A stretch of DNA of 64,000 bases from Heptranchias perlo (taxonomy: Eukaryota), in assembly GCF_035084215.1 (NCBI RefSeq), contig NC_090370.1:5270001-5334000 (forward strand), written 5' to 3'. The position numbers and the translations under genes are program-made. Positions 9,076-50,415 of the stretch are shown one piece after another (position 1 is the first letter of the stretch; each line of letters begins with the position of its first letter). The notes beneath the pieces were generated by a model. The model worked only from the letters and a program-made list of their open reading frames with translations. It was not told the origin of the DNA and made no database searches.

Positions 9076-9199
9076 ACTCGTATTAATTGCACCATAGAAA
9101 AATGCAATGCTTATATTTCAGAGTTGTCGAAGTTAACTCTGTCTGACCTCAATGTTTGTATCACCTGATGTCAAGAGGAAGCAATAAGCCTGCACAACA

Positions 9200-20655: not shown

Positions 20656-21189
20656 GTATGTTTCCTTTTTTTGGCTGAGGAGAATGTGCTTGAACTGTTT
20701 AAGTGGTTGCCTGGCTTTTTGGCTTGAGCATAGAGTAGCCAAATGAGTTCTGCAGCAATTGACTTAAATGCATGGCAATGGAATTGAACACTGATCTTTC
20801 ACCTGTGACCAGGATGGCTCCAGTCTGGACTTATGGGATGCAAATTTGTGTTGGCCTGCCTCAAGCCAGTTCCTAGTAAATATGAATCTGTAGCTTACCT
20901 GTCTTTTGTCAAGGATGGCATGTGGGGAAGAAATGTACCATTTTTAAAATTCTGCTTTGCCATTATTCTGTTAGACCAGCTAGAAGAACAGAAAACACAT
21001 GTGAATAGTTCCTCTGGGTGTTTTCATGAACATTTTTTCCTCAGCCCCTATACAATGGAATGAGATCTGATTTTTGGTACTTTTTTTAAATGTCACAATT
21101 ATTGTTGCCTAAGTGTGGTGAAATTATATAAATGCACTTTATGTAGGTTCACCTTCCAAAATCTTATACTTGCCACTTTTTTTCAACAG

Positions 21190-21283
21190 GAAGCGCAAGC
21201 ATATGCAGATGACAACAGTTTGTTGTTCATGGAGACGTCAGCAAAGACAGCAATGAATGTTAATGACCTATTTTTGGCAATAG
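21190..21283 (+). CDS. RAB5B: RAB5B coding exon 4
   Basis: caacag| [31 protein letters not shown] |gtaaga; 94 nt. NDLFLAI is RAB5B-type. Confidence 0.97.
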
Positions 21284-22029
21284 GTAAGAGATGGGAGACT
21301 GGGAATTTTTCAGTGAATTGGGAGCTGATTGAATTGGAGTATAAACTGTTATGCCTTAATTATAAAAAATGGCCATTGAGCCATCACGCTTTCCCAATCC
21401 TTGGGTCCATATACCAGCATGTACTAAGCCATTCTAAAGTGTAGTCAGTAGGGATAATTAATGTCTTTGTCCTCTTGGTTAAATGGGAGATCTTCCCAAA
21501 TGTTTGTGAAATTGATCAGAATAGGTACACTAAGTGAGGGAGCCAAAGAGTTCATAACTTAATGGGTTTTAGGTTGAGTATATAGAGGCAATCCCTCTTG
21601 CTTTTAATAGCATAGTTAAATTTCTAACCCATCTACAATATGGTTAGGCTCCTAGTAAACTAAATTTTGTATTAAGGTGGGAACCTAAAATGCCTTCAAC
21701 CAACAAGTTGTTGAATTGTCATATTTTGTGTGCAAAGAGTGTCTGGCTGCCTTCCCCCTCCCCCATACCACTAGTCTAGATTTGGACTGATTCACTATAC
21801 CAGTTTTTAATATTTACAACCATTTATCAGTTATGGGGGTCATCAATAGATGGAAGGCCAACTAAAAATGGCTAACTCTAGCATCCAAGGCTGTAATGCA
21901 AAGCCCTGAGCAAATGATGGAAAGGAACTTGAAGATTCTTAGAGTACTACATCCTGCCTTCTATCTGAAGTGCTATGAAATGATTCACATTGCTGGTTCT
22001 ATTCAGATGGCCCTTCAAGCTATGCTATA

Positions 22030-22450
22030 GTTTGGTGCAGTTGGTAGCATTCGATCTCCTGAGTCAAAGGTATGGCTTCATGTGCCAATTCAGGACCGGA
22101 GTACATTATCTAGGCTGACACTCCAATGCAGTACTAAGGGACTGCTGCATTGTTGGTGCTGCCTTTTCAAATGAGTATGAACAGAGGCCCCCCCATCTAC
22201 CTGATCAAGTGGACATAATTATCCCATAGCACTATTCAAGAGCAGGAAGTTTTGGTGTTCTGATCCACATTCAACCAATGCAACAAAAAAATGTTAACTG
22301 GTCAATCATCTCATTTTGCTGTTTGTGGTACCTTGTGCGCAAATTGGCTGCTGCATTTGGCTACATAAGTGACTGCAAAGCACTTTGCAACCAATTAATT
22401 TTGAAATGCAATGTCTTGATGAGACGCAATGTGAATGCAAGCTCTTTAAA
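22030..22450 (+). mobile_element. Degenerate Deu-domain-type tRNA-derived SINE
   Basis: tRNA-like head (gcagttggtagcatt...ctgagtcaaagg) and ctaggctgacactccaatgcagtactaaggg core shared with the 5570 copy. Confidence 0.65.
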
Positions 22451-23160
22451 TTGGGTTCTTTTACCCCTTGGGCTGCCAGCAACTTGTGTTGCAGGTTCCT
22501 TGGGCAAGACTGGAAGTTTTTACAAAATGACTTCTGTTTTTATTCAAAATATACCCTACTTCTACACTTTTTTCTTCCTTGCCATAAATCTCTGCTTCTG
22601 AGGTGGGAATCGTGTTGCGCAAATCTGGCTTCAAAGGTTGTCTTGGCAGCTGAATCAAGGTTCAGGACTTCGAAGATTGACTGGGGTTTAGTATGGCATT
22701 TGCTGCTCTAGTCGCTTGACAAAACTACTGCATGGCAACCTAGAGAAGGAGATGCTGCCAAAAGGAATTCTTGACATCCTTGGGGTTTAGAACTGTAGCT
22801 TTACAGTCAAACCACTTGTTCAGAGCCTCAACTTCCTGTAAGTTGATAACTCTCCTTGGCACTAGCATTATATAGTCTAGTGGGAATTTGACAGTATTAG
22901 TCTCTTGGCACACAAGGGACTGTGGGATAATCAAAGTGCTTAACTAACTAGAATTATTTAATTTAGAACATTCTCCATTCCAACCAGAATCTTCCCCACA
23001 CGCTAAATATTTTACATATAACCACTTTTTAAAAAAAGTACACTGCATATTAAATGCATCTTGTTTAAAAGTAGTTTGCAAATGATCAAACTGCTTTCAA
23101 AGCCTGATAAACCTCCTGTATCACTTGGGGAGCACCATTACTCGTATCTTTATCTTCCAG

Positions 23161-23276
23161 CCAAGAAGTTGCCAAAGAGTGAACTTCAGAATGCCAGTGG
23201 AACAGCAGGGCGCAACAGAGGTGTGGATCTCCATGAACCATCTCAGCAGAGCAAGAGCCAGTGTTGTAGCAACTGA
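23161..23276 (+). CDS. RAB5B: RAB5B last coding exon
   Basis: ttccag| [42 protein letters not shown] geranylgeranylation motif. Exons sum to 648 nt = 215 aa plus stop. Confidence 0.97.
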
Positions 23277-30759: not shown

Positions 30760-31340
30760 GATTGCCTACCGCCAAACTGAATAGGCCTGTCAATACTCGC
30801 ATGTTTTTTTTGGAGAAAACGGTGTTACCTGTTCTGCTTATCTCGTTTAAAAAAAAGCTGGGTTTGCAATTAGCCTCGCATCTTTAAAATTTCGAGACAA
30901 TCAATTATCTGATCTGAACTCTTTGTTTTTAGCAAGACTTTAAAAAAAATACTTGCGCAATGGGGACCGACTGGCACTCCCCCTGTGACGCAGTGCCGCC
31001 CGGCGCTAGGACCCAAAATCCTCCCGAGTTGCAGGCGGGACTGGTGGTACTGCCACAATCCAGGAATCTTGAGTAGTGCAAGTGGCTGCGCGGAGTGAGC
31101 CTTTTAAAGTCAATGTTTTCGTTATTCAAACAGACTTAATCGGTCGGGAGACGGCAGCACATCGGAAAGAATGAAACAATAGACCTGCCAGGAGTCTGCG
31201 CCAAGTAAAACTCCTCGCTGAAGGGACTGACCTGTTTCATCGGGTCAGTAGGAAGTTTGTCCAGAAGATCTGACGTCTTGAGAAACTTTTTGTCAAATTA
31301 TTTCCGAGAGGCAACAAGAGGGTTTGTTCAAACGCGGAGT
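30760..31340 (+). promoter_or_regulatory. CpG-rich promoter / 5' region of the LRRFIP-like gene
   Basis: Marked CpG enrichment versus flanks, GC-box-like motifs (gccgccc, ggcggga), directly upstream of the ATG at 31342. Confidence 0.6.
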
Positions 31341-31341
31341 G

Positions 31342-31425
31342 ATGGGGACCCCGGCTAATTCCCGGAGACGGATCCTGTCGAGAGAAATGTCTGAGGATGA
31401 AACCATGATGATGATGATTAAAGAG
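31342..31425 (+). CDS. LRRFIP-family gene, coding exon 1
   Basis: MGTPANSRRRILSREMSEDETMMMMIKE |gtaaga. Aligns with the recalled LRRFIP2 N-terminus MGTPASGRKR...SAEDEALSNIARE; phase 0. Confidence 0.85.
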
Positions 31426-32249
31426 GTAAGAGCAGTTTGTTTTTCTTCTGAAGTTGTCTGTGATTAAACGAGTTACAATTAACGACGCATAAGCCGTTTT
31501 GTAAAGGTTTAAATTGTTGACGTTTTAAAAAAAATCAAATCGAATGTGGGTTCCTACATAATTATAATTAGATCAGGATAAGGCCATGCTGGAATCAAAC
31601 TGTAACATATGAGGTCATCCCAGGCTAGTCACAAAACGGGAACCAGATACTATGACTTGGAAATTATTCTATGTTACATGCCACAAGTGTGGACCAAACC
31701 CCTGCATCTGTAGGTAGAAATGATTTCATTGGCGTGATGTTAAAATAGGACTCTGGAGAGTGAAATTGCTTCCTTTCTGGTTCGTTCAGCCACACCTAAA
31801 GGCCGCTCTCCTTCCCCAAACTTCAGTGTTGAACTCCATCCAACCCACTTAATTGCCTGAACAAAAGTTCCATACAATTGTTCCTGCTCTCTGAAGGAAA
31901 ATCAATCATATCTGTCTTATTATTTATCTTTATCTTGTTGCGACATTTCTTTTTTAATTCCTGTCTCCTGAAGGTGCTGACTTCTGCTGGCAGGGCTGTG
32001 TGTAGGCAGTTCACCTTACTGGAAGTATTACATCCAGCAAAGCCTGCTTACTTCATACGTGTGTATTCCCAGCATAGGCTGGATGGCAGTTAGGAGCCAG
32101 AGCCGGAATCATGGCTGACTTGATTTATCCCTTCCTAGCCTAGAAGTAATGAGGCCAAATGTAACATCCTTACCAATGTCCTGGCTGAAATCACCAAACT
32201 GAATACAGAGCTAAGGCATGATATTTCATGGTTCCACAAAACCATACAA

Positions 32250-33590
32250 GTTTACAGTATAAGGACACCATTCGGCCCATTGTGACTGTGCTGGCTCTTT
32301 GCTAGAGCAATTTAAAACAAATCTCATTGCACTGCTTTCTCCCCATTGCCTTGTATCTTCCTCTGCTTAAAATATTTATCCAATTTTCTCTTAAAAGATG
32401 CAATTGTCTCTGCCTCAACCACTCCCTGTGGCAAAGCATTCCATGTTCTAACAATCCTTTTGAGTAAATACATTTGTCCAAATCTCTCTCCTCCCTTACC
32501 TCAGTGGCAAATTTAAATTGATGACCCCTGTCACTGCCTCCACAACCAGAGGAAATAATCTTTCCTCATTCAACATATCAAAACACTTCATAATTTTAAA
32601 AACCTCTATTAAATCTCTTAGCTGGCTCTGCTCCAGCTCCAGTCAAAATAGAATATTGAAATATATAGTCAAAACGATAGAATATAAGTCAAAGGAAGTT
32701 GTGATCAAACTGTAGAGTTCTGGTCAGACCACATCTTGAGTATTGTGTTCAGTTCTGATCAAGGGAGACATTTAAGTGCTGGAAGCCGCAAGGTTGATAT
32801 TTATTGTCAAGAGTCTGCACTATGAGAAAAGACTGGAGAGACTTGGGTTTCAATCTGGAAAGGAGACATCTGAAAGGTGATTTTATAGAAGTATGTAAGA
32901 TAGTAAATGATATGGAAAAGTTTCATCTGGCATGCTACTTTAAACAAAGGGACACAGGTTCTAACTAGTAAAAGGTTATATTTGGGACTGGTATCTAGAA
33001 GTTCCTCTTCACACAGAGTGGTCAACACATGGAATGGCCTCCCAGATAGATATCATTAATGCATTGTGCTGTGGTAGCCACAAAAGGCAGCACTTTACCT
33101 GACTTCTAAATGACCGACCTCGCTTCTTTATGGGAGCTGTTTCTCAACTTAGCCGCATCCGACCTGGTATTGTCGGAGGCAAAAACTCTGGAATAATTTA
33201 AGAAACAATTGGATGCTGCAGTGGGGACTGTAGGGTCTTTTTGGATGGATGAACTAACATGAGCCGAATGGTCTTCCTGATCCATAATTATCTTATGAAA
33301 TACTTCCAGTATCTCAAGTCTCCTCGTATAGTTTCCCATCCCTGGCATCGTCCTGGTGAATCTATATATTTTCTATGGCGTTAATGTCCTTTCTGTAATA
33401 GGGCACCCAAAACTGTAGTGTCTTAACTGTGGCCTAACCAATGCTTTGTACAAGTTTATCATTACAACTTTACTCTTGTACACCGTGTCCCTAATTATAG
33501 AATCCAAAATGCTGTTGACCTTTTTGATGGCTTTCTCTCCCTGTACTTGCACTTTCAGGGAATTATGTATTCAAACCTCCTAGGTCTCTA
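32250..33590. mobile_element. Cluster of old CR1 fragments in alternating orientation
   Basis: About 32250-32640 minus (3' end), 32640-33290 plus (IEYKSKEV..., cttcacacagagtggtcaacacatggaat) and 33300-33590 minus. Confidence 0.7.
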
Positions 33591-33639
33591 AAATCAGAAC
33601 AGAACAAACCTCTAGGAACAATTTACTACCTGCAGGAGT

Positions 33640-33995
33640 GAGACGCTACAATTTCAATTGTTCCCTTTCTGGGCCTCTGAAGTTGAGTGGTGTGTCAGGG
33701 CTATTAATCACTCTATTAAAAGGATCCTTACGTCGTGAAATAGCAACTCTGACTTTCTGCACTGAGTTTAATTTGTATTTACGGCGCAAATCCAGCAATT
33801 TCTTGACACTCACGGGGAGGTTGACGACGAGCACCAGTTTTTGCGAGGCTAACGGCAGAGCAACGCAAATTGTCCACCAATTTATGGCGATTTGTAACTC
33901 TCAGCGTTTCGCTTTCTCACTACAAATTGACGGCACTACCAACGATGTGTGCTATGAACGTGTCGTTATTTTTGCAGCAAATTCTGGGCCATTAT
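33640..33995. mobile_element. CpG-rich non-autonomous DNA transposon (MITE-like) fragment
   Basis: Isolated CpG-rich block ending in gcaaattctgggccc, which resembles a GGGC-initiated TIR. The partner TIR was not found. Confidence 0.4.
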
Positions 33996-36900
33996 TACAG
34001 TAATAAAGCTATTTCTATTATCTAAATAGTGTTATTATTGTAATGGGGATTTTTCAGCATCAAAATGTGAACTGAAATCTCTAAAATTGAAGACCGGTCC
34101 AAGAAGCACTGAATTCCCTGCAGCTGTTTATGGGTTAAGTGTTTGACTTTTCATTTAAAAAAAAAATTCACCTTTGTTCACTTGTTACTCACCCAAAATT
34201 GTTAATCTTTAAACCTGGTACACACTAAACACCATTTGCTGGAATCAATTCCCATGGTCATTCATAATCCAAGCCACTCAGTAAAGTTGCCTCATTACCA
34301 CAGGGCACTGTATATACTGTACCATGTACACTGAAGGCTATGGATGTATATGGTAGCCATAGAATAATTAATTGTAAGGGGAAAAAAAATTGAACTTGGA
34401 TCATGAATTTTAGAAAGGAATAAAATCCAGACCTGGTATAGATGAGAAGTTAGCCAGTGGGGTAGCATAGGGAAGAGCTGTAACAGGTAATAATGTTCCA
34501 TGGTGATGCTACTGCCTTTGAACTACTTTTTGTTAAGAAAAGAAAACCATCCTTCATCATAACTGCCACAGTTTAAATTGATGTTCAGTGGGATTTGATC
34601 TTGCCCGATATGATAAAGGGATATGTCCGTATCAAAGTAAGAACTGGGTATATGCACCCCAGAACGGCTGACTTCAAATTTGGAGCAATCATTTGATAGT
34701 TATTCGATGTTTGAGTTATCTGTAGAATCTGAGGGTCACTCACCTTGACTCTGCAGTCTCGAAGCAAGAAAACAAACAACACACAGTGATCTAAAGCAGA
34801 GGGATTTGAAGACAATATGCTGAAGAATTGGGAGCCAGTGGAGGTTAGTGAGGACAAGAGTGAAAGATGTGCGAACCTGCAACACTAAAGGCCCTCATGC
34901 CACTGACTACAAAAGAGCAACAGTTAATGATTCTCTGTTGCTGCAGGCTACATAAATATTATGGTGCTGAGTATTTGCAACGTATACTGATAAGAACCTC
35001 CGCTAATGGCTCTATTGCACACCTCTTGGTAACTAATGTGCCTTATGACTTTTCATTTTCTTTGTGCGGGAGTGCTTAGCCTTTATTTGGTGCCAATCCC
35101 AGATGGTGTAAGTGAGATCATAACCTTGTACTGTGGGGAATCATGGGTGCAAATCCACACTCTACTCTTTTATTGCGTAAACAAAACCAGACAAGGCTGG
35201 AAAGGCGGAAAGGCAGCAAGTCAGTCAGCATCTGCGGATAGAGCAGATGGGTGACGTTTCAGATTCATGCCCTTCGTCAGAACTGAAAAATACAAGATGA
35301 ACAAGCCTGTTAATAGAATCAGAAAAAAGGGAGGGGAAGGGGGAAAAAAGAGAGAGGAAGTATCAGTGAAAATATTGCTGGATGATGTAACAGATCATTG
35401 CGTAAATGTGCTGGAGTACAAAGGTGCAGCACTTTTAGATAGCATTCTTCTCTAACGCTAGGTATTGCAGTCCTGGGCAGTGAAAAACCATAAACACATG
35501 TACAGTCCAAAGACTGATTTGTATTTTTTGGGGAGGGGGAGCCTAGATGTAACCACATCCATCTGCTTTCAGTGGTGTGCTGTTTCTATTTCTGTTAGAT
35601 GTGCTAGCACGAGTGTATTATGTTGGGCCTTGAGAGTCAGTAAGCTACAACGTGCCCACGCTTAAGAGACTGGCTGTGTTGTGTGATTGTTATTTTAGTT
35701 TTCATAGTTTGGTGAATTTGTTAGAAAGAATGTAACTCTTTTTCCATGGAGGGGTTTCCACTTATCAAGGGCATCCATGAAATTGAAATTTCGACTGCAT
35801 TTTGTCCTTTGCTGAAGAAAATGTCTTGAATATTCAGTGTAACTAAAGGGTGCATAAGTTAATGTCAGTGGAAGTTTTCTTTACACTAAAATGCAGGAAA
35901 AGAAAGTGAAAGGCGAGGGAAGGAATCCACGTGAGAGTTTTTACTGGCCTTCGACCAGAAGGAACCAAGAGAGTTCTGAGATACCTTGTGACCTGGAGAT
36001 GCCACGTGACCACCATTTAGGCCACCAGTGTTTCTGTATAACGGGGCAATGCATAAATGCACCATGTGGTGTGGTATTGAGCCAGACTGATCAGGAAGGA
36101 CCCAATTTTGATCCTCGTGCTGAGTTAAGTCGATAAGCTAAACTAGAACAGCAGTGGGGTCACTACAAACGGCCCCAGTACTCCTATGCTGGAAGTGAAG
36201 TAAATTCAGCCAGGGTTCCTGCTCCTGATTGCCATTCAGTAACCCCTATTGGGAAGTGTATGCGTGTTGATGTTGAGTGAAGATAGGATTGGGCTTGGCC
36301 GTGAGGTACCTCAGAGTTAAAAAGTGCCTGTCGACACTCCATCTAGGCTCAAACGTGAAGAATGGGAGTTTGGGTGAGATGTCAGAGGACTGCTGGGATA
36401 CATGGAACTACATCTGGCAGAAGTCAGCACTTTAGGGAGAGAATTGAAAGGAGGAGGAAAAAAAAGCAGGAAAACCAGCTGTCTGAAACAATTTACCCTG
36501 GCAGAGTATGGTCAAACCAGGACATTATGAAAGTGAACCTATCTGTAAAACTCCAACGTGATTACATTGCACCTTTAAATCCTAACCCGTGTTCTTTCTC
36601 TTTGTCTCTCCTCTCTCCTCTCTCCCCTCTCCCCACGTTCTCCACCCCCCCTTCAAACATACGCGTGTACCTCAACAATCCAGTTCATCAGGTTTTAGAG
36701 TCAGCCAGACAGTTTGTAATCCCTGTCCTTCCTTACGTGAGCTGGAATATAGTAATGCAAAACTTATTACCTCATCTCAGTTTAACTTTCTAATTAGTGC
36801 ATCTCCCGGTTGGTGACTTACTGTCACGTTGGAGCTTTCAGCCTACCTGCGCCTGATGTTGGCACTTGGAACTCTTCTCAGCTGGTGTGACCCAGTCAGG

Positions 36901-39344
36901 ATTCTTTTGTCTCCTTGACTTTTGACTTTAATAATCAAATGGTGCATTTGATATTAGACCAGATTGATTTGTTGATTTAATTAGCAGATGGCTCCTTTAA
37001 TTTAATTTTTAAAAAATCACTGGTTCATTTTTGTCTGATTTAAGCCTCAGTGAAGCACCTTGGGATGTTTTTCGACGTTAAAAGTGCTTTATAAATGTAA
37101 ATTGTTGTTGTTCCATTATGATAACTTGTATGTTTGTGACATACAAAGTGTTCATATCTCCATTGACTTTCTGTAAATTAAGATGTATTTTGTGGTTTGT
37201 CTCCTATTTTTAATATTTATGCATGAGGTATTTTTTGGGAAGGGCAAACCTCTGAGTCCATAGAAATGCTGTTTGTCTCTTCAGCTTCAAAAATGTAGGA
37301 ATTTTGAGGCAGCAAGGGCTTCTTTTGAAAACTGATGGTCAGAATAAATTGTGACATTCTTGAGTTTTAACTTATGAGCTGGAGTGGAGAGATGGAATGC
37401 ACAGCACAGCATCAAGAATTTGTTCATCAAATTGATACTTGAACTCAAGTCAGAAGCCATTCTTACGAAGGGTATTTTAACCTATTATGAACACCTTCAT
37501 TGTTATATTTATATTGTACTTTTAGTATATCATTTCTAATGCATGTTGCTATTTGTTTGTAAAACAAAGTTGTTATTAGTGGATTTAATCTGTAATTCGG
37601 TTTGAAGAGAAGAGATTATGTTTAATCCAGAAGAAACTGTAAAATCCAGTAACCAGGTTATTGCAAGTGGAGCAGTTAGAGTATAGAAAAAATACAGCTC
37701 CCTTATCTTCTAAAGGCATTGCCTGCTTGTTGACTCCACAGGCACCAATCTCTCTCTCATACCTTGCCCAAGTAGCCATTCTTTATTCCACTTGGCAACC
37801 TAGACAGTGACTTAGGCATGCTAGTCAACTACAGAGGGCCTGATCCATCCAACTCCAATCTTAGCCTCACCTGATGTCCACATGTGTACTTCCAGAAGGG
37901 GGTCACTGGATGGCAATCAGAAGCAGGAGCCCTGGCCTCTTTGCCTCCCTAACCCAAGGACATTGCCACCTTGGCTGAGAACAGTTTACTCAGCAGAAAC
38001 TGGGGGGGGGGGGGGGGGGGTAACTTTCTGCTGGGATTCTCCCGCTCGTTTGCTGTAATCTCAACACAAGAGCCACAGAAACTATGGGGACGCTGTGTAC
38101 ACTTGTTTACGCCATTTTTCCAGGGTTTCTGAGGATTAGACCGCTCTTGCTGACAGATTTACCACTTCCCACTCATTAGCAGTTGGGGAACACGTGAATT
38201 TTTTTTCCCCTAACTTTCTTCCCTCCTCTTCTGAAAGTGATAACTCTTGATGGGGTACAGTTCCAAAGGTGCCAGCAGTACCTCATCCAAATAGCCATTC
38301 TTCACATGAGCCTAGACGGTGAATGTCAGTGGGCTATTCAAGCATGGAGGACATCAGCCAAGTTCAGTCCTTTTCTCGTTAAACACCCACACACTTTCCA
38401 CTGGGGGTCACTGCGTAGCACTCTGGAAGAGGCATCCTGGCTGTTTTAGCTTCCTTCTCTCCTTCAAAAGTCCAGTAATCTTGAGGCCAATTGTAGCAGT
38501 CTTAGTGCTGCCCTACCTGAGATTAGCGAACTGCAGAATCCAGAGATTGAAGCTGGGACCTTCCTGATCTGTGTGGCACAGTACTATTGGGGAGAACTGT
38601 ACAGGTGGTAAGTTTATATGTAAATGCCTGTCGGCAGTTTCACATAACTCTACCCATTTTATAGTGTATTATCAACTCGATGTAAAGTTTGACTAAAAAG
38701 AATGCATGATTATAAACATGCTTTGTACACTATGAAATGTAAAATTAGCACTTTTTAAAAAAAAAAAAATTTCCTGAAAGCTTAGACTTGTATGATGCTG
38801 TAGGGCAAAGAACACACAACGAAGGATGGAAAAAGACCAGCTGATCCATTGAGCCTGCCCTGTCCACCATCAAACCCAACCCTAACTCTATCCCACAGTT
38901 CTTGAGAGGTTAAAAAAAAAGAGGACCAATTTAGGAAAAAAAACCTCTGGGAAATTCCTCTCTGAACCCTGCAGACATAGTTTTGACATTCTAGTAAATA
39001 ATGGATCAAGAGTTGGATAATGGGATTGAAGTATTGATTTCAGCACAGTGTGGATGTACGGAAAAGGAAGAGAGTTTTAGGATGGCAAAGTCTGAGGAAA
39101 GGGTGCGAAGGGAAAAGAGAAGTTAAGATCGAGTTGAAGAGAGTAAATTTATAAGAATGAGACAGACACTGGAACATCCTTTTGGGACTTAACAGTGTCT
39201 GAGAGGTAGTGCTTGGCATACCATCCAAGAACATTCTTCCCAGGAGAGGAAGAAGGATAGGCCTCTACTCACTGTGGCCAGATGAGGGTCTCCCAATGCA
39301 CGTCAAAGAATTTTCATTTTTATTCTGCCTTTCACGTCCTCACA

Positions 39345-39722
39345 GCCAATTAATTATTTTTGAAGTGTAGTCACTGTTAGGTAGGCAAACGCAGCAGCCA
39401 GTTTATGCACTGCAATGAGATAAATGTACATTTAATCTTTTTGGTGTCATTGGTTGAGGGATGAATGTTTGCCAAGATATTGGGAGAACTCCCTGCTTTG
39501 TCCTTGTCGAATAGTGTCATGGGATCTTTTACATCCACCTGTTCTGGGTGAGGCATTGGTTTAGTGTCTCATGTGAAAGATGGCACCACCAACAGTGCAG
39601 CACTCCCTCAGTACTGTAGTGACGTGTCAGCCTAGATTATGTATTCAAGTCTCTGGAATGGGGCTTGAACCCACGACCTTCTGACTCAGGCAAGAGTGCT
39701 ACCAACTGAGCCAAACTGACAC
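39345..39722 (-). mobile_element. Deu-domain-type SINE
   Basis: Reverse complement of the 5570/22030 family, including tRNA-like head (ctgagtcagaaggtcgtgggttcaagcccc). Confidence 0.75.
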
Positions 39723-41997
39723 TGAAAGCTTGTCATAAAGGAAAATTGCAAAGGAGGAACGTAATCGGCGCCCTGACAGCTCACTGCATCGCTGTGTGTT
39801 AGCATCAATGGAGTTAGGGCTCGTAACCGATAATCCTTGCTTCAAATGAGTCACAGCTGCTTCTGCTGGGATTACTTAGAGGATGCAGTTTTTGGCTCAG
39901 TTGGCTTCCCCAGAGAGCCAGTCCTAGACCACATGCCTGTTAAGAACAAATGACTTGGGATTGAGGCACAGTGTGTTGAAACATCCCCTTCCTGGGTCGT
40001 CTTGTATTAGCATGGATACTGTTACAGTCCAACATGGTACTGACACTGGGTACAAAAAGTGGAAAAATATCCCATTGCCCAGCACTAACTTCTCTCAACT
40101 CAAGCACAAAAGTTAACCAAAGTATTCAATGAGTTAATGATTTGACATTCATCTATTGCAAGATAAAATCCATGCTGTGCTTAAGTAATTTGTTCTATGA
40201 AGACAGATTTTAAACGATAAGGAAAATGGATTAAGTGGATTTGTTGAAATGAGTTCTGGGAATGTGTAGGACAGCTTTCTGGAATAAACCATCCCTTGGA
40301 GCTATGAACTTATGCAGTTAACATAAAGTTTGCAATTTTATAATTGCAATTGCATCTGTACAGGAAAACAAAAGTGTGTATATATAGCACCACAATTTCA
40401 ATATTTAAATTTGAATTTAGATGGATTTCAGATGTGCTTCATCACCAACTCTCTTGTGTTGTTGAATACCAGGGAAGGATGGCCAGCCACAGCACTGGTA
40501 CATCTGTGACCATCCCTTCCCCCTTATATATTGTGTTAATCTTAAAAGAAAACCAAAAAAAACCTCCCCTCTTCTGAAGGCAGTGACTCATGGGGTCCAG
40601 TTTTACAGGCACCCTCTTGTACCTGGCCCAAGTGGCCATTCTTTGTGTGTGAGCCTAGATTGTGAGTGTCAGCAGGCTATTTGATTTGTAGTATCTGTCA
40701 CTGACTGATCTTGCTTTTTTTTCCCCCATCCCTATCCCACTGCTACTCTGCCTGAAACCAGCTGACTCAGCACAAGCTAAGAATTGAAAGTTGGACCACC
40801 CTGGTCAGTATGGGTTGGTGGTATACTGGGTGTTTCGTTTATGAGCGGAGCAACGGGGAAGCCTTAAAACAACAAGTTTACTAAAACAAAAATAGTTTCA
40901 AGAACTTTGTCCCTGACCCGTCTCTTCCCCTCTATTTAAAAACATCAATAATGTTGGGAGAGAGGCTTGGCTGCGCCACAAAAATGTGACAAATGAAGAG
41001 ATTATTTGACTGCATTAAACAATCTCCATGTTCTGAGGGGCAAATAAAGGTTAGCAAGCTCAAAAGTTAGCAAAATTGTGCAATGAGGTTATACAAGCAG
41101 GAGAAGTGAAATTGTTGAATAAAATGATGTAGAGAAAAGAGTATAGAGAACTGAAGGATATGGCAACAGCGGGGGGGGGGGTGGGGGAGGCGGTGTTTGA
41201 GAAAGAAATAGTGGGGAATACAGGCCACGGGCTATCCGCAGCCAATCCGCAGTTTTAATCTTTTTAAGGAAAAAATACTTCATGGGCTGAGTGCCATTTT
41301 CACATGCACAACCAGTATTCCAGTATATAGGCATGCTGCATACTGGAATTACAACACGGAAACAGGCTGTTCGGCCCAACCAGATTTTAATGACTGTGTA
41401 AAAAATTTTACACGAATCTCTGCTTGTTTGATTATCTTCACCACCAGAATGTGGAAAAAAAATCTTTGGATCACTCCCACACTGAAACAGCTGTCTTGTT
41501 GGCCAGTTCTAGTGCAGCTTGATGGTGATTCTACAATTGTGGCATGCAACAGTTCTGCCTTTCTGGATGAAGTATGCTGTTAATAAAAGGACCTGTTTTT
41601 TTTAAAAAAAAGAGGATGAGTTCATTAGTTCTCTGTAGGGCTGCTAACGCATCTCATAGAGATAAAACATCAATCAGCAGAGAAAATAAATGAAACTCTC
41701 TAATACCCAGCAGCAACCCATCTAATACAACCGAACATGGACTTGTACTGGCAAAGGAGAATGCAGCCTACTGACCCACATAACCACTAAGCTGAAGGAA
41801 GATGCATACAAAATAAATAGCGTTGGTTTTGATAGAATTTTTATTTTAGGTAGACCAAAAGTTCTTGTTGATATGCTGGTGGTATTGTGGCTGCCAGTGC
41901 TGATGCCAGGATTGACCAACCTCTTCAATCTTTCTCCTCTTGATTTTGTTGACTGATACCCATGACATGGATCACTCCCCTTCTGTTTCTCTTCCAG

Positions 41998-42084
41998 GCA
42001 GATGCAAAATCCAACGCCAGGCAAGCTTCATTTGCTGAGGCCAAAGAGGCCTGTGTGAAGAAACTGGTCCGACAGCAGCAAGAG
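41998..42084 (+). CDS. LRRFIP-family gene, coding exon 2
   Basis: cttccag| ADAKSNARQASFAEAKEACVKKLVRQQQE |gtaaag; 87 nt, phase 0-0. Aligns ungapped to LRRFIP1 [29 protein letters not shown] (29 aa). Confidence 0.88.
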
Positions 42085-42844
42085 GTAAAGCATAGTATCA
42101 AGACAAACTCTGAACTCTTTGTCCTTAACAGTACAAGGTATTTCTGTAGAAATAAATAGCTGGTGCGATGAAAGGTAATTCCTGTTGAGAACAAATGACA
42201 CGGATGATAATATAAAACCACCTCATTAAAAATAAGTCTTGGAATTGAGGCACAGTATGTTGAAACAGCCCCTTGCTGGGTCTTCCTGTATTAGTAGAGA
42301 CACCGTTACAGACCAACACGATACTGACACTGGGTACAAAAAGTAAAAAAGTATCCCATTACCCAGCACTAACTTCTCTCAACTAAATAAGCACAAAAGT
42401 TAACTAAAGTATGCGATGAGTTAATAATGATTTGGCATTCATCTATTCCAAGATAAATTCTATGCCGTGCTTGAGTAGCTTGCTGTGTTATGAAGACAGA
42501 TTTATATTAGAAAACAAGATTGAGAAGGGATATAACCCCAGTTTTTATATGATAAGGAAATGCATAGGGTGGAATTAAGTAGGTTTGTTGAAATGCATTC
42601 CGGAAACGTAGGAAATGGGGGCACAACCTCAAAATTCTGGAAAACAGGAGTGAAAAGATAATTAGACTGCTTCTTGGTTTGGGCTGTTCCTCTCTTGAAT
42701 GAATTGTCACCCAGTGCAGTGAACTTGTGCAGTTAACAAAGTTTGCAATTTTATAATCATTATATCTATCTCGCCACAATTTCAGTATTCAAATTGGAAT
42801 TTAGATGGACTTCGGGTGTGCTTAATCACCAACTCTCGTGTTAA

Positions 42845-43262
42845 AACAAAAAAGAAAGACTTGCATTTATATAGTGCCTTTCAGTCTCTGGACATCCCAA
42901 AGTGCCTTACAGCCAAAGAAGTACTTTTTGAAGTGTAGTTACTGTTATAATGTAGGAAATGTGGCACCCAATTTGCACACAGCAAAATAATCTTTTTTAA
43001 GTGATATTGGTTGAGGGATAACTATTGGCCAGGACACCTCCTCTTCGAAATAGTGGCCGTGGGATCTTTTACATCCACCTGAGAGGGCAGACATGGCCTT
43101 GGTTTAATGTCTCATCCAAAAGACGGCACCTCCGACAGTGCTGCAATCCCTCAATGCTGCACTAAAGTGTCAGCCTGGATTTTGTGTTCAAGTCTCTGGA
43201 TTGGGAGTTGAACCCATGACCTTCTGACTGAGACGAGAGTGCTACCAACTGAGTCAAGGCTG
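42845..43262 (-). mobile_element. Near full-length Deu-domain-type SINE
   Basis: L2-like tail (acttgcatttatatagtgcctttca), shared core and tRNA-like head. Absent from the other copy of the local duplication. Confidence 0.8.
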
Positions 43263-44898
43263 ATGAATACCAGGGAAGGATGGCCAGCCACAGCAGTGGT
43301 ATGTCAGTGACCATCCCTTTCCTTGTCACCTATCAGGACTTGATTTAAAATCCAGCTGAAAGAGAAGGGATGAAGATTTTTTTTCCCTCTGCTGAGGGAT
43401 TGGGAGATTTGTTTGGTTACAGACTATCCATTCATCACTTCTGATTCTCCTGTTTCTGTGCTGAATTTGATCACTGAATTCCCTGAATCAATTCGCTCTG
43501 CCAATGTACATTTATACGGCCCTCAATAACTTCTACTAGCTAGCTCTCTCAATGATCTATGTACACCATTTATATTAAACAAAAAACACAATCAACTGAA
43601 AGACAGAAATACAAATGGTTTAATACTACGATCTAATTTTTAAAAGTGGTGCTAATTGCGAACTTTTGTTGAAGTACTAAGTAACCTTTTCTGAAAAGGA
43701 ATTGGGTTTGGAATAAAAAGAAAATTCCAGGTTTCAAATAATTTAAAATCATTTCATAGTTTTTGCGATGATGCAAATTTGTATTTGTCTAGGGATGAAC
43801 AGAAACCTAGTTGTAAAGGACACTTGTCCGTACACATTGAACCACACAGTTCCTATTAGATATGCGAGGCCTTCATTCCTGTTTGAGCTAAATTTAAACC
43901 CACATCCCACAGATGAACAGACATTGTTCTATTATACTCTACTACCAAGTCCCCATCAGTAAGAAGGGACGTTTAGTTACCTTTGTTCCAAGCTGAATTG
44001 TAATCCAGACTTGAGTTGACATCCAGCCCTAAGAGAAGGTGCATATTGATCATTAGGAGAGCTGGCTATTGGAAGTTACTGAGGAAAGCAAGAGGGAGCT
44101 GCGGGATAATTCTGGAGCGTTTGGTCAATTGCCATTTCAGTTGTGTGTCAAATAAGCTTCCTCACCCAGTGAGGCTTAGTAACCTCTTAAAGCCAAACAG
44201 AAATGGAAAAAACAAGCATGTTGAAGTCAGTAATATGTAACATCTGGTATATTTATCGCACTAATGTAAATATTGCTTGGGACAGGAACTTGTGAACCAA
44301 ATACTTTAAAGAAGCAGGAACTTAGAGTACAGTATAAACATTTTAAAAATAAATTTATACTCTTGCTTTAGTATTTCCTCCCCTCTTTTGAGTCTCTTTA
44401 TGTCACAGACTCCTGGCAGAAGCCCAGGTTGATGCACCTGCTCCAGTAGAGATTCCTCTCAGCACCACCTTGATGGCCCATCAAAGATTGCAAATGTGCT
44501 GTGTCTGGAATTGCAGGAGCAATTCTGCAATCTGTGCCACTAGGCTGCTGTGGCACAGTAACTTTGTAAAAGATACAGCACAACCTGTACGGTAGTTAGA
44601 CATAACAGGATCGAATTTCCGCAGGGTTTCTCCTGATCTTCCGCTGTAACCTTGGTAGAAACCCTGGAAAAACGGCAGAAGGTCGAGAGAAATTACAGAC
44701 TAATCTTATTTGGTTGTCATGTCTTTCTTGCCATCATAATCTGGGGATTGGAACAAAATGAAAACTGAAGGGAGGTGTGGTGGGGGGATACTTGTATAGA
44801 ATGCATAGACTTATTTTGAAGTAGGCCTTGGTCACATAAGATTTAGTCTCGAACCAACATACAATAATGTGTTTCTTTGCTCTGTATTTATTTCACAG

Positions 44899-45000
44899 AT
44901 AGAGGAGTTATTGAAAAAACAAGCTGCTGATCAGTTAGGAGTCTTGCCACTTGTAGTCTGTTCCAAACAGAATATTAAGCATCTTGGATGCAGTGACAGA
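44899..45000 (+). CDS. Possible small internal exon of the LRRFIP-like gene (3' end uncertain)
   Basis: Strong acceptor tttatttcacag| IEELLKKQAADQ resembles the short LRRFIP VEER...EK exon. Donor is either CA|gttagg (44933, phase 2) or AGA|gtgact (45000, phase 0). Confidence 0.4.
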
Positions 45001-45976
45001 GTGACTAACTTATTAATTCCAGTCACTGCCATTCAGAAAAACTGTTGTTAAAAAATTTGGGTAGTTGTGTTTGGGCTTGTATGTATAAACTATCTTATTA
45101 TACAACTCATTTCAGAGTCCTTGAGCAACATACGGGAATACTAATGTGAGCATTTTGATACAAATTGACTATAGGCTGCCTGCTATATGCTGTGTTACAC
45201 ATGTCCATTTTTACAGTCCCCATGTCAGTTCTGTAAGAAAATTGGGCACTGTTTGTTCCTTGTATTGCTTTAATGCATGGCTTAAGTGATAAAACGTGAA
45301 GAATATATGAAACTTGAAACAGCCATTAAGCGCACCAAGCTCATTCCTCCCGCAGGGCATGTACAGTATGTTCTATCATGACTCTACCCTGCTTACTTAA
45401 TTAAGGGGGGGAAGGGGGTGACTAAGCATGGATAATTTCCAGGAAGACTGGATTCTGCAATTTTTCCCTGCCCCCTAAAGATACTTGTGTGAAAACTCCA
45501 GGTTATCATTCTGTCATTGCAACCTACATTCTTCAATCCTGAACAGTTGCATTCCACACAGGACATTTTCATGGCCCCAGCAGCATAGAAATCATTACAT
45601 ATTGTAGCGTATTTGGTCACTTGTCCTTATAACATTCAATTCTGTTCTTATCCAGATATTGCTCCAGCTTTTTTTCAAGGAGGTGTTAACTGACACCATT
45701 AATTTTGTTGGGGGTCTGTTGCACATATCTATAACTCTATGGCGGGGGGTGGGTGCGGGGGGAAGGAGAGACAAAATCCAGGCCCACTTGAGACTTTTTA
45801 ACTTCATCTATATAAGTGGTGTACATTTTTGCATGTCAACAGTCACAAATTATGTGCACCCACCTACAGTTACACAAGTACGTTGTACATGTAGACAGGT
45901 GGCCATTGAAATGCTGTTTTCTGTGTACATAAAGCCCAGCGAGGAGTACAATTGTTTTATATTGGTCCTTGTTTAG

Positions 45977-46147
45977 GACACCCAAGAAGACTTTGAAGAG
46001 AAGTACATGGATGCAGTTCAATCGATCAGTCAGTTGGAAACTGAGAAGACTTTACTTGTGTATGAGGTGGAGCAACTGAGGGACGTTCTGGAGGGCACGG
46101 AGGAGGAGCTGGCAGAGCTCCACAGAAAACACACTGAAATAAGCAGG
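45977..46147 (+). CDS. LRRFIP-family gene, coiled-coil exon
   Basis: gtttag| DTQEDFEEKYMDAVQSISQLETEKTLLVYEVEQLRDVLEGTEEELAELHRKHTEISR |gtatga; 171 nt. Ungapped match to the 57-aa LRRFIP1 segment [36 protein letters not shown]... Confidence 0.9.
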
Positions 46148-46866
46148 GTATGATCAAGTGTGTCCCTTAATTTCAAGTTTACTTGCAATCTAAAGAAGCT
46201 CCATGGTCTCAAATTGTCTTCAAGATAATAACCATCATTAGAAGGTACCAATAAAACCAAAAGCCTGGAATTGTGTCCCCTCCTGTCTATACAGCTCCAT
46301 CAATAAAGTCCTAATACTCCCCCTTCCCCAACCCTAAGCTAGAGTCCCTAATACTAACCTGCCCTCCCCATTCTACTCCATATTCCAGCATATTCATGTT
46401 CTCTATGGTCCATAGATCCTGAAGACATATTAGCCCTTTTAAAATTAATAAATTAACCCTACTTTATTAGCATACTAATATTTGCACAGTATGATTCCAA
46501 GACCATAGTGTTGGGCAGTCTCAAGCCAGAGTCTTATGCCATTATTTCACATCATAAAACTGCAGAGAATCTAGCACCAAGATAGGGCACAAGACTAGCT
46601 GGGATATGAGATGTCACTGGAGGAGTAAGGGTGCTCTGCAGAGTTTGGAGGTTAAAGCACATAATTGGGACAGTATAGAGTGAGCTTTACCCTATTTGTG
46701 ACCTGGAAGTGTTGGATGCAAAAAGAAACAAAAAAATGTTCCAAGCAGTGGCATCCATCAACTTAATAAGTACAAAAGAACAGTAAATTTAAAATTAAAT
46801 ATAAATGCAATCTATGTGACGTGAAAGCTGTTGAGTGATTGCCGTTTACTCAATCCCATTACACAG

Positions 46867-46956
46867 GAACTGAAGACAGAGAAAGTTGCCAAGCATTTAT
46901 TACAGCAGAAGATTAATTGCATGGAGGAGTGGCTGGAGGAGAAAAAGAAGAGCGAG
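46867..46956 (+). CDS. LRRFIP-family gene, second coiled-coil exon
   Basis: acacag| ELKTEKVAKHLLQQKINCMEEWLEEKKKSE |gtaaga; 90 nt. Compare LRRFIP EFEREKHAHSILQ... Confidence 0.85.
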
Positions 46957-47234
46957 GTAAGAGGGATTAAAGCAAAGACTGGCTTGCAGTACGTTGCAGC
47001 CAGGGCCATGGGAAGTTACATTTGATCAACGGAAAACTTTCTCTTGAACATTTTGGGTGCCAAGCCCAATCTGCCTAACCTTCACCACCCACACAGCTTC
47101 TCTTCAGGCCTCCACAGACACTAATGCCAGTTCCTCACCACCCTCCTGAGCACTCCCTGGGACCATGAATCACCCAACCTAAAGCCCAATGTGGTTCTTG
47201 TTTCCCCCTACCCCCACCCTTTACTGGACCTAAG

Positions 47235-47430
47235 GAGGTGATAGGTGGGAACAAACCCAGCTTCTCCAGTCTCTCCATGTAACTGAAGTCTTTCACCCTC
47301 AGTACCATTCTAGTAAATCTCCTCGGCACCCTCTCCAAGGTCTTCTCATCCTTCCTAAAGTGTAGTGCCCAGAATTGGACACACTACTCCAGCTGATTCC
47401 TAACCAGTGATTTATAAAGATTTAGCATCC
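47235..47430 (-). mobile_element. Short CR1 fragment
   Basis: ORF piece ERVPRRFTRMVLRVKDFSYMERLEKLGLF. Confidence 0.8.
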
Positions 47431-47856
47431 CCCTTTTAATTTCTCTCTTTCTTTAAGTCCCTCCATTTTACACCTAATTCTTCAGTGTTGGCTCTCTGGG
47501 ATGGCCCAAACCTTAAATAGAAGCAAAATTGTAATAATGGGAGGAATAAAAGAAACAACTGTGACATTTTTTTTGAAGGATCTGAATAATAAAGACTCAT
47601 TATTTAACTTAATATTCTTTATTTTGAGAATAGTGCTCTTTGAATATTACCCTGAGGGAAAGTACAGCCTGTGGGACTACTGGCCATTAGGTTTGCCTCT
47701 TCTCACCTTCCTCCTCTTAGCTACCAAATAGGGGCAAGTAACCGAAAAGGACAGTAGGTGACTGCTTGTACATTGAAAAACAATTGTCAAATTGGCCATC
47801 CCTACTACACCTGTAATTTCCATTACAAGTTAACTAATTTTGTTGTTTTTCCACAG

Positions 47857-50415
47857 GACACTGAAATAGCTGCCACAGAGAATATGGATAAAGATATTCG
47901 GAGCAACGTCAGATATCGGGGATACTCAGATGCAAAGAAAATTGAGTTTAAATCAGAAGATGGGGGAAAACACAGTGTGGAAAAACTTCTGGGCTCAGCA
48001 GCAAACCTTGCAGACGTAGAGCAGAAACACTCGGCAAACGGTAGCTTTGAAACCGAATCCAACAGACAGCAAAAAAGGAAAACAAATGACGATATCGTCA
48101 ATGGAAAACACCAAGAGGGAAGAGTGAATGGATTCACACAACAGGGTGCAAATGATACACAATTGGAAGAATCTACGGGTCTGATTAAGGATAGTGAGAA
48201 TGTAACAGTTATAGAAAAAATGAACAACATTCATTGTTATGAGACTGAGAGAGACAAATCGAATAAAGTTGTGGAAGAACTAATGGAAGGCAGTAGAAGT
48301 AAAGCTTTAGAACAGTTGGAATTGGGGAGTGACGACAAGGACACAGAATACAACAAACCCAAATATAAGGAAACCAAAGGCCATGAGGAAAAAAAACAGA
48401 AAGAGCTAATGTTGGAGTTAAGTAAAGTTGCTTCAAAGGAAATTGTACACAAAAGGGAAATGAATGAAAAGAAAAGTGAGGGAGATGAGGCTGGAGCAAG
48501 AGAGGAGACATTCAATGAAGAGAGTTTGAGTAACACAGTAGAAGAGGGAGTAAGAAAGCAAGTTGAAGGAGAGAAAAAAATAATGATGGAAATGTGTGGT
48601 GGTAAAAACTTGGAGATGGTAAAAGAAAAATCAGTGGAAGTTTGTGGAAGTATGACAGAGGTTCTTAAGCAAGTGGGTTTGATACAAGACCACAGAGTGA
48701 CCCTGGGAGAGTCCAGATGGGAGGGAACTAAAGAGAAGAATAGGGCGATTGAGCAAGGGCACAGTGAAGAAATAAAATATGGGGAAAGTGATTTTAATGA
48801 ACTGAGGAAAAGGAACCAGGATGGAAAGAAAATTTTAGAGCAAGGAGAAAACCAAGAGGAGGAGCAGGGAGGTAATGTGTTGAATCAAAACAAACCAAAA
48901 GGAGATGGAAGAGAGGATAGTGTGAATGAATTAACTAATAGAGAACAATTAGAGAAGATACCAGGAGAAACAAATGAATGTAGGTATCCAGAGAACTCTG
49001 AGAAGAAAAGTGTTTGTAAGAAGGAGGAACAGAGGAAGTTTGAAGGGATTGAGTTAGTAAGTAATGAAAGAGTGGAAGAAACAAGGAGAGAATATAGAGA
49101 GGATGAGAGCCGAACAGCAAAAGAGATTGATATGTGGCCAGCAAAAAGGGATGGTGAAGAAATCCAGGAAAAAGATAAAATACTGGTTATTAACACAATC
49201 CAAACAGTAACTTCAGAAATTAGTTACAAAAATATGGAAATGGATAGTATGGCTGAAGAAATGGAAAGTGGTGGAGAGGATTTGGTTGACGGAATTGAAA
49301 GAGCTCAGGATAAATGGCCAGAGAGGAGAGGAGAGGTCATCAAACAGTTTCAGTGCATGAAGGAAACCGTTTCAAACCCTGTGAATGATGGAGATTCTGT
49401 GAACCTGAAACGGGATGTGTGGCTGGACAAGAATGAACAGCATGAAGGAATGCATGGAAGGGAAGTATTTGAGGATGAGGAGCAATTTAATGAGGCTCAG
49501 AGTCAAAGAGATGAGGAACAACTAGAGAATGAAAATCCTGGAAAGAATCAAGAAATGGATAGAAGGTTACAAGGATCTATAGATGAAGTAAAGGAAGAAG
49601 ACAGCAGAACAAGAGAGCAAGATGAGACAATACAGCATGAATTGAGAGAGGCAGAGAATGCCAAAGATAAAGTAGATGCAAGAGAAGATCTATTGCAAGG
49701 GGACAATAAAGAAAAAGATAGAGAGGGGAATGAGACAAATGTAGAATTAGACATGAAAGGGCAGAAAATTGTAATGGATGGACAAGTACAGATAGAAGGG
49801 AAAGAAACACAGAATGAAAGTGGCACTGAACAAAGTAATGGTGGGAAGGGGGCGCTTGAAATGTTCGAGCAACTGATTAAAAAAATAATGACACGGCAAA
49901 AGAGTTTTGCAGAAAGTGAGGGGAAAGTGAACAGGGAAGACCATGTTGACGGTTACAGGGGTGAGACAGGTGGGGAAAGAGAAGTGGAAATAAAAGAACA
50001 GAATAAAGAATATGTATTTGCAAATCAAAGACAGAGTGTGGGAGAAGAGAAAAAAGGGATAGAATCAACAGGTGGTAGGACTGAGGAAGAAGAGAATGAT
50101 GAGTTAAGTAGGAAGGGACTGGTTGAAGGCACACTGGAGCTGACACTCCCTGAGGGAAGCAAAGCAGCAACAGAACACATTGAAGAAGCTGAAGGAACAG
50201 TGGATGATATCTCTGACGAGGAGATGCATGATGCAGCAGAAAATATAACTTCTGAACCAAAAACTGACACACCTGCTCAAGAAAGAAAACCAAACACTGA
50301 AGAAGGTCCTGAGGACACAACAACTAATGACGACGTGGAGTCAAGGGAAAATTTAAATACAAGAGAGAGCACCAAGCGACACCTTAGGCACAGAGAGACA
50401 TGCCAGGTTTCGTAG
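47857..50415 (+). CDS. LRRFIP-family gene, large acidic low-complexity terminal exon (852 aa) ending in CaaX
   Basis: ttttccacag| DTEIAATEN... open for 2559 nt, E/K-rich, ends RETCQVS*. In phase with the previous exon; analogous to the long acidic last exon of LRRFIP1. Confidence 0.85.
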   Translation, partial: DTEIAATENMDKDIRSNVRYRGYSDAKKIEFKSEDGGKHSVEKLLGSAANLADVEQKHSANGSFETESNRQQKRKTNDDIVNGKHQEGRVNGFTQQGANDTQLEESTGLIKDSENVTVIEKMNNIHCYETERDKSNKVVEELMEGSRSKALEQLELGSDDKDTEYNKPKYKETKGHEEKKQKELMLELSKVASKEIVHKREMNEKKSEGDEAGAREETFNEESLSNTVEEGVRKQVEGEKKIMMEMCGGKNLEMVKEKSVEVCGSMTEVLKQVGLIQDHRVTLGESRWEGTKEKNRAIEQGHSEEIKYGESDFNELRKRNQDGKKILEQGENQEEEQGGNVLNQNKPKGDGREDSVNELTNREQLEKIPGETNECRYPENSEKKSVCKKEEQRKFEGIELVSNERVEETRREYREDESRTAKEIDMWPAKRDGEEIQEKDKILVINTIQTVTSEISYKNMEMDSMAEEMESGGEDLVDGIERAQDKWPERRGEVIKQFQCMKETVSNPVNDGDSVNLKRDVWLDKNEQHEGMHGREVFEDEEQFNEAQSQRDEEQLENENPGKNQEMDRRLQGSIDEVKEEDSRTREQDETIQHELREAENAKDKVDAREDLLQGDNKEKDREGNETNVELDMKGQKIVMDGQVQIEGKETQNESGTEQSNGGKGALEMFEQLIKKIMTRQKSFAESEGKVNREDHVDGYRGETGGEREVEIKEQNKEYVFANQRQSVGEEKKGIESTGGRTEEEENDELSRKGLVEGTLELTLPEGSKAATEHIEEAEGTVDDISDEEMHDAAENITSEPKTDTPAQERKPNTEEGPEDTTTNDDVESRENLNTRESTKRHLRHRETCQVS

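What the first reader, a model, noticed from the sequence alone, without database searches (positions are those of the whole stretch)
31342..50415. Highly diverged LRRFIP-family gene next to RAB5B: candidate third vertebrate LRRFIP paralogue
Seen: five phase-0-compatible exons (84, 87, 171, 90 and 2559 nt) with canonical splice sites give about 996 aa; the ORF track does not show them as one gene. Knowledge (recalled): the peptides align without gaps to the LRRFIP1/LRRFIP2 N-terminal helix and coiled coil. The usually near-invariant [20 protein letters not shown] is here ADAKSNARQASFAEAKEACV, far more diverged than expected for a true LRRFIP1 or LRRFIP2 orthologue. In human, LRRFIP1 is at 2q37, LRRFIP2 at 3p22 (same arm as RAB5A) and RAB5B at 12q13, with no LRRFIP gene that I know of. 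Inference: a whole-genome-duplication ohnologue ('LRRFIP3') retained in this lineage and lost in mammals.
Basis: partly seen in the sequence, partly recalled or inferred. Interest (0 to 1): 0.8.

Follow-up and report, generated by a model that had tools for sequence, protein, structure and literature searches.

The report
Third vertebrate LRRFIP gene, lipid-tailed
This shark genome holds a spliced, transcribed third LRRFIP gene beside its LRRFIP1 and LRRFIP2; it has unnamed counterparts from chimaera to lungfish and teleosts, likely arose in the vertebrate genome duplications, and makes a shortened form predicted to be lipid-anchored to membranes.

Summary
Confirmed. The five exons splice to a 996-aa protein, and RNA-type contigs show all four junctions. 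The genome has separate LRRFIP1 and LRRFIP2 loci, so this is a third gene. It lies between RAB5B and SUOX on the contig carrying the fourth Hox9 gene: the HoxC/human-12q13 paralogon, which is the elasmobranch X homologue. Counterparts from sharks, rays, chimaera, coelacanth, lungfish, sturgeon, gar and teleosts (zebrafish-derived name si:ch1073-456m8.1) form one clade, 100/99; lineage-specific duplication is rejected. No tetrapod member was seen, but the hit lists were cut, so loss is unproven. New points: the gene keeps only the layout of LRRFIP1's long isoform (helix, first coiled coil, acidic tail), and 142 of 145 members end in a CaaX box although the tails barely align between lineages. 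It is likely the 2R sister of LRRFIP1, fixed as a farnesylated coiled-coil dimer; Flightless-I binding is doubtful and untested. No description was found in print; databases mislabel it.

The parts
31132..31425 (+). Exon 1: 5' UTR from about 31132 (contig starts), CDS 31342-31425; CpG-rich promoter region
41998..42084 (+). Exon 2: diverged LRRFIP N-terminal helix, 29 aa
44899..44934 (+). 36-nt cassette exon, skipped here (TT follows instead of GT); present in many relatives' proteins
   Evidence: 36 extra letters at this joint in a relative's contig
45977..46147 (+). Exon 3: first part of the LRRFIP coiled coil, 57 aa (PF09738)
46867..46956 (+). Exon 4: rest of the coiled coil, 30 aa
47857..50415 (+). 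Exon 5 CDS: 852-aa acidic tail (18% Glu), no Pfam hit
50401..50415 (+). CaaX box Cys-Gln-Val-Ser and stop codon
50416..50770 (+). 3' UTR with AATAAA at 50678; contigs end near 50765-50772, where a repeat begins
15938..23276 (+). RAB5B coding exons, upstream neighbour (SUOX lies downstream, outside the window, at G000:C49:5352797-5354284)

Best explanation
This is a spliced, transcribed third LRRFIP gene, likely the second-round genome-duplication sister of LRRFIP1, whose product is predicted to be a farnesylated, membrane-anchored coiled-coil dimer. Shown: the gene, its three-copy status in this genome, its clade across jawed fishes, its place on the HoxC paralogon and its CaaX end. Inferred: after duplication it lost the insert exons and the second coiled-coil exons, so that only the layout of LRRFIP1's long isoform remained; the CaaX cysteine is prenylated as in human LRRFIP1; the acidic tail is a spacer between membrane anchor and coil; the kept heptad core still dimerises. 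The surface motif and N-terminal helix that are near-invariant in LRRFIP1/2 have eroded, so its partners have probably changed or weakened (Flightless-I binding about even odds, untested). Odds: third ancient paralogue 0.9; sister of LRRFIP1 0.7; prenylated 0.8; X-linked in elasmobranchs 0.8.
For: Three loci in the genome, found by two searches. One clade of 22 rows from all sampled jawed-fish lineages, 100/99, held in three smaller sets. AU tests reject shark-only, ray-finned-only and lobe-finned-only duplicates (p 6e-7, 1e-7, 0.0013, 6e-5). Paralogon: Hox9 and RAB5 each on C2, C7, C33, C49; hedgehog and CTDSP-type genes on C2, C7, C49; STAT pairs on C7, C33, C49; a STAC-family gene 0.45 Mb from LRRFIP2. 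The RAB5 copies on C7 and C49 share residues at 6 of 13 variable sites against C2/C33, with 1 site conflicting; PMC10972751 groups Hox A/B against C/D. This genome's LRRFIP1 has a long acidic exon at the same place ending in a CaaX box; none was found in the matching LRRFIP2 intron. CaaX in 142 of 145 members, 139 ending in Ser, against 1% Cys background. LRRFIP1 is listed as prenylated in a supplement of PMC7902609. Heptad core Leu/Val positions are kept in at least 91% of rows.
Against: The tree does not place the clade: sister to LRRFIP1 (p 0.23), to LRRFIP2 (0.063), outside both (0.16) and with a lamprey copy (0.18) all stand, and the largest tree draws it to the outgroup. Only 148 columns and long branches, so the clade could be partly attraction. 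Synteny was checked only in this genome, not in bony fishes. LRRFIP2 lies on C3, not on the Hox-bearing C2, which needs a translocation. No class IIa HDAC, RAMP or STAC hit on C49. The shark tail shows no BLAST similarity to lungfish, sturgeon, gar or LRRFIP1 tails, so tail homology rests on position and the CaaX end. The test for lost 3' exons also missed this gene's own exons 2 and 4, so it is weak. No functional data exist.
Confidence: 0.72

Rival explanations
1. An ancient third paralogue that is not the 2R sister of LRRFIP1: it arose at 1R or earlier, or is sister to LRRFIP2, and shares the CaaX tail by retention of an ancestral isoform.
For: AU tests do not reject these placements; the 47-row tree puts the clade outside LRRFIP1, LRRFIP2 and cyclostome rows at 88/79.
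Against: Location on C49, the C7-C49 pairing of RAB5, the published Hox C/D pairing, and the CaaX exon found in LRRFIP1 but not in the matching LRRFIP2 intron. The three cyclostome proteins seen end without CaaX.
Confidence: 0.17
2. A small-scale duplicate of LRRFIP1's long isoform in the jawed-vertebrate stem that landed on the HoxC chromosome by chance.
For: The immediate neighbours differ between loci (RAB5B and SUOX here; the C7 RAB5 is 25 Mb from LRRFIP1); loss of many exons fits a partial duplication.
Against: Introns sit at the same phase-0 places, so it is not a retrocopy; the two loci are on sister paralogon chromosomes, which a random insertion would seldom hit among dozens of chromosomes.
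Confidence: 0.06
3. The shark, lobe-finned and ray-finned genes are independent fast-evolving LRRFIP copies joined by long-branch attraction.
For: treekit warns that long branches meet; tails do not align between lineages; bony-fish synteny untested.
Against: AU tests reject each lineage-specific origin; all share the compact helix-to-coil spacing (65-79 residues against 144-397 in the LRRFIP1/2 and cyclostome rows measured) and the CaaX end.
Confidence: 0.05

Closest known systems
LRRFIP1 long isoform (GCF2-type; coiled coil solved as PDB 4H22)
   Same: N-terminal helix, 87-aa coiled coil on exons of the same size and phase, one long acidic last exon, CaaX end (79 of 99 long LRRFIP1/2-type hits end in CaaX).
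   Different: 44% identity to this genome's LRRFIP1 over 117 positions, whereas LRRFIP1 and LRRFIP2 share 70%; no insert exons, no second coiled-coil exons found; helix and coil surface motifs eroded.
LRRFIP2 and single-copy invertebrate LRRFIP (Drosophila CG8578)
   Same: Same family domain PF09738 and heptad core.
   Different: These carry the second C-terminal coiled coil (PMC13712786); 38% identity to this genome's LRRFIP2, which lies beside MLH1.
Automatically annotated database entries: si:ch1073-456m8.1, 'LRRFIP1-like', 'LRRFIP2-like', 'golgin A6-like 25', 'trichohyalin-like'
   Same: These are this gene or its counterparts.
   Different: They are unnamed or mislabelled as LRRFIP1, LRRFIP2 or unrelated coiled-coil proteins; no paper on them was found.

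Membership tests
LRRFIP family (PF09738) | Pfam match above the curated cut-off | tested here: met
   Exon 3: 40.7 bits against 28.2; lungfish and coelacanth members 41.9 and 54 bits; the whole 996-aa protein scores no hit.
LRRFIP family (PF09738) | N-terminal helix plus 87-aa coiled coil on conserved phase-0 exons | tested here: met
   Exon sizes and gap-free alignment; continuous helix predicted for a sawshark member, pLDDT 91.
LRRFIP family (PF09738) | Binds the Flightless-I LRR domain through the dimeric coil | not testable with these tools
   No whole Flightless-I chain was available; only 8 of 31 invariant coil positions are kept across the clade, 18 of 31 in this gene.
LRRFIP family (PF09738) | Coiled-coil dimer | not tested
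   No complex model obtained; core Leu/Val positions conserved.
LRRFIP1 orthologues | Groups inside the LRRFIP1 clade; no other LRRFIP1 locus in the genome | tested here: not met
   LRRFIP1 is on C7 and groups with ray LRRFIP1; AU p 6e-7.
LRRFIP2 orthologues | Groups inside the LRRFIP2 clade; beside MLH1 | tested here: not met
   LRRFIP2 is on C3 beside MLH1; AU p 1e-7.
2R ohnologues of the Hox paralogon | Paralogues on paralogous chromosomes | tested here: met
   Hox9, RAB5, hedgehog, CTDSP-type and STAT distributions; LRRFIP2 is displaced to C3 together with a STAC gene.
2R ohnologues of the Hox paralogon | Duplication before the shark/bony-fish split | tested here: met
   Clade spans both groups, 100/99.
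2R ohnologues of the Hox paralogon | Duplication after the split from invertebrates, sister to LRRFIP1 | tested here: inconclusive
   AU tests leave four placements open.
CaaX prenyl-proteins | Cys at position -4 with a farnesyl-type last residue | tested here: met
   142 of 145, 139 ending in Ser; the reading of Ser as farnesyl-type is recalled.
CaaX prenyl-proteins | Actual prenylation | not testable with these tools
   Only the human paralogue LRRFIP1 is listed as prenylated.

The most novel reading that the evidence does not exclude
LRRFIP3 is a splice isoform turned into a gene: after 2R one copy fixed the farnesylated long form, gave up Flightless-I and helix-partner binding, and became a membrane tether or damper for LRRFIP1/2 dimers; it is X-linked and dosage-uncompensated in sharks and rays and was lost at the origin of tetrapods.
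Probability: 0.2. Interest if true: 0.7.

Novelty: new variant of a known kind. Interest (0 to 1): 0.5.

Why it matters
The papers read treat LRRFIP as a two-gene family in humans, and databases label this third gene as LRRFIP1, LRRFIP2 or golgin-like, which can distort orthology and copy-number counts in fishes and sharks. It isolates, as a separate gene, the CaaX-ended long form that in LRRFIP1 is one isoform among many; the single zebrafish-named counterpart makes the role of that lipid-anchored form testable by one knockout. Conservation of the CaaX box across unalignable tails points to prenylation as a neglected feature of LRRFIP1 itself. Tempering this: ohnologues kept in fishes and missing from mammals are common (own knowledge), and no function is shown.

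Tried and rejected
Pseudogene or chance ORF: rejected by the junctions, by orthologues in 14 elasmobranch records and by the listed in-CDS indels in a relative all being multiples of 3 (list cut). Misassembled LRRFIP1 or LRRFIP2: rejected. Golgin homology suggested by the database name: no Pfam support. A fourth LRRFIP on C33 or C2: none found (these searches score only top candidates). Internal repeat in the tail: none by self-BLAST. No run is on record as RNA; contigs cannot give tissue or level. No homodimer model was obtained, so dimerisation is left open. The melanophilin/MYRIP paralogon check gave no answer. Atlas searches only confirmed the family. Earlier findings of this scan: none. 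Supplement searches for this gene or RAB5B in four papers found nothing; only small files were held, and bioRxiv supplements with X-gene lists, the ohnologs.com database, Ensembl trees and ZFIN could not be seen and may already list the gene. Storck et al. 2019 was not held. Dropped from trees: 4 of 51 rows (two alternative first exons, one partial, one degenerate LRRFIP2-like copy).

Full report
Observation. Joined in a script they give 996 aa identical to database protein P0001, which its source labels 'golgin subfamily A member 6-like protein 25' of Heptranchias perlo. Contigs from 4 of 4 runs (one sample, guessed to be RNA) skip exactly the four introns. In a second study, one contig of a related organism covers exons 1, 2, 3 and 5 in order with 36 extra letters between exons 2 and 3; these correspond to a cassette at 44899-44934 that this genome skips and that is followed by TT rather than GT. 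Exon 3 passes the Pfam LRRFIP cut-off and matches the LRRFIP1 coil 4H22; the whole protein gets no Pfam hit, which probably explains the wrong database names.

Three genes. Two searches of G000 give LRRFIP coil exons on C3, C7 and C49, plus a helix exon on the small contig C722. The C3 gene lies beside MLH1 and groups with bird LRRFIP2; the C7 gene groups with ray LRRFIP1. Over 117 aligned positions the window gene is 44% and 38% identical to them, while they are 70% identical to each other.

Distribution. Searches returned 14 elasmobranch orthologues with exon 3 alone and, with profiles, compact members named from chimaera, coelacanth, lungfish, sturgeon, gar, arapaima, eels and many teleosts; two teleost entries carry the name si:ch1073-456m8.1. 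In one search the 120 listed of 270 hits were ray-finned fishes or unnamed records, 150 of 276 were listed without names, and none of the 30 that I had named was a tetrapod member of this group. Absence from tetrapods is therefore not shown; that human RAB5B and SUOX are adjacent with no such gene is recalled.

Tree. With 47 rows and 148 columns, the 22 candidate rows form one clade at 100/99, apart from LRRFIP1 (96/89) and LRRFIP2 (98/88); smaller sets agree. AU tests reject elasmobranch members with elasmobranch LRRFIP1 (p 6e-7) or with this genome's LRRFIP2 (1e-7), ray-finned members with ray-finned LRRFIP1 (0.0013) and lobe-finned members with tetrapod LRRFIP1 (6e-5). The clade's position is open: with LRRFIP1 p 0.23, with LRRFIP2 0.063, outside both 0.16, with a lamprey copy 0.18. 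Branches are long and the tool warns of attraction. Group labels of unnamed LRRFIP1/2 rows were set by motif.

Chromosome context. The order is RAB5B, this gene, SUOX. Hox9 occurs once each on C2, C7, C33 and C49, as does RAB5; hedgehog and CTDSP-type genes on C2, C7, C49; STAT pairs on C7, C33, C49. RAMP, class IIa HDAC and STAC searches gave no C49 hit. LRRFIP2 is on C3, but with a STAC gene 0.45 Mb away, so its block is likely a moved piece of the paralogon. The RAB5 copies of C7 and C49 share residues at 6 of 13 variable sites against C2/C33, one site conflicting, and PMC10972751 (passages) groups Hox A/B against C/D. Together these make the gene the likely 2R sister of LRRFIP1. Assignment of the hedgehog copies (C49 as Dhh) and of RAB5B beyond one exon uses recalled motifs.

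X linkage. [quoted passage not shown] This is circumstantial: only 4 of the 14 records could be compared this way, and no read depth was measured.

Anatomy and mechanism. This genome's LRRFIP1 has, after the coil exons, a long acidic exon ending in a CaaX box and further downstream the exons of the second coiled coil. The window gene has only the first layout: tblastn of seven full LRRFIP proteins found the second-coil exons on C7 but not in 144 kb of C49 (the test also missed this gene's own exons 2 and 4, so it is weak), and the contigs show one form. No acidic CaaX exon was found in the matching LRRFIP2 intron. Of 145 members that I selected (two partial models and cluster duplicates left out; most teleost rows were classed by search rank and by lack of the canonical helix motif, not by tree), 142 have Cys at -4 and 139 end in Ser, although proteins range from about 270 to 996 aa and the shark tail aligns only to cartilaginous-fish tails among six compared. 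Human LRRFIP1 is marked as prenylated in one cell line in a supplement of PMC7902609 (passages). I infer farnesylation and membrane anchoring; cartilaginous-fish and lungfish members also keep 5-6 basic residues before the box, ray-finned ones 1-3. Published work places dimerisation and Flightless-I binding in the 87-aa coil (PMC13712786, passages; bioRxiv 10.64898/2026.06.02.729301, passages and section 10). In this clade the core Leu/Val positions stay, but only 8 of 31 coil and 0 of 28 helix positions invariant in LRRFIP1/2 are kept in 80% of rows (18 and 13 in the window gene). The helix motif is near-canonical in coelacanth and lungfish, altered in sharks and unrecognisable in gar and teleosts. 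A dimer is likely; Flightless-I binding is open.

Novelty. 'LRRFIP3' occurs in one paper, where the passage uses it for a known NLRP3 regulator and it looks like a slip; 'ch1073-456m8.1' occurs in none; two further searches showed no paper on the family's evolution (listings only). The Greenland shark preprint counts 12 LRRFIP copies without naming a third paralogue in the passages seen; PMC4588145 (passages) and PMC13450315 (passages and one small supplement) add nothing on it. The library lacks most subscription papers, and ohnologue databases were not searchable. Verdict: a real, undescribed third paralogue with a reduced, CaaX-fixed layout; solid but of a common evolutionary kind, interest 0.5.

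Noticed in passing
G000:C7:70691000-70698400 (L046): A fourth RAB5 gene, closest to RAB5B in diagnostic residues, on the LRRFIP1 chromosome; mammals have three RAB5 genes (recalled), so this looks like another retained ohnologue.
   Followed up: partly
P0021, P0022, P0023, P0028, P0034, P0036, P0043, P0046, P0054, P0079: A group of proteins built from 3-10 tandem copies of the LRRFIP coiled-coil unit; the three named are from catfishes and labelled myosin-, tropomyosin- or LRRFIP2-like. Possibly an undescribed LRRFIP-derived repeat family.
   Followed up: partly
G000:C3:101.5-102.1 Mb: The STAC-MLH1-LRRFIP2 block lies on C3 and not on the Hox-bearing C2, suggesting a translocation relative to the paralogon.
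   Followed up: partly
window 44899-44934: Cassette exon kept in relatives but followed by TT instead of GT here, and skipped in all four runs.
   Followed up: yes
window exon 5, about residues 440-580 of the protein: About 150 residues present here and absent from the 13 other elasmobranch proteins aligned.
   Followed up: no
G000:C7:95820000-95900000 and C722: The LRRFIP1 locus is filled with very long simple tandem arrays, its tail exon has internal repeats, and its helix exon matches a separate small contig.
   Followed up: no
window 6302-9082 (- strand), also 30125-30514, 56149-56757: LINE-type retroelement open frames, one of 927 codons (family recognised from memory, not searched).
   Followed up: no
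P0138 (sea lamprey): A diverged lamprey LRRFIP whose coil shares some residues with this clade but keeps the second coiled-coil end; grouping with the clade is not rejected (p 0.18).
   Followed up: partly
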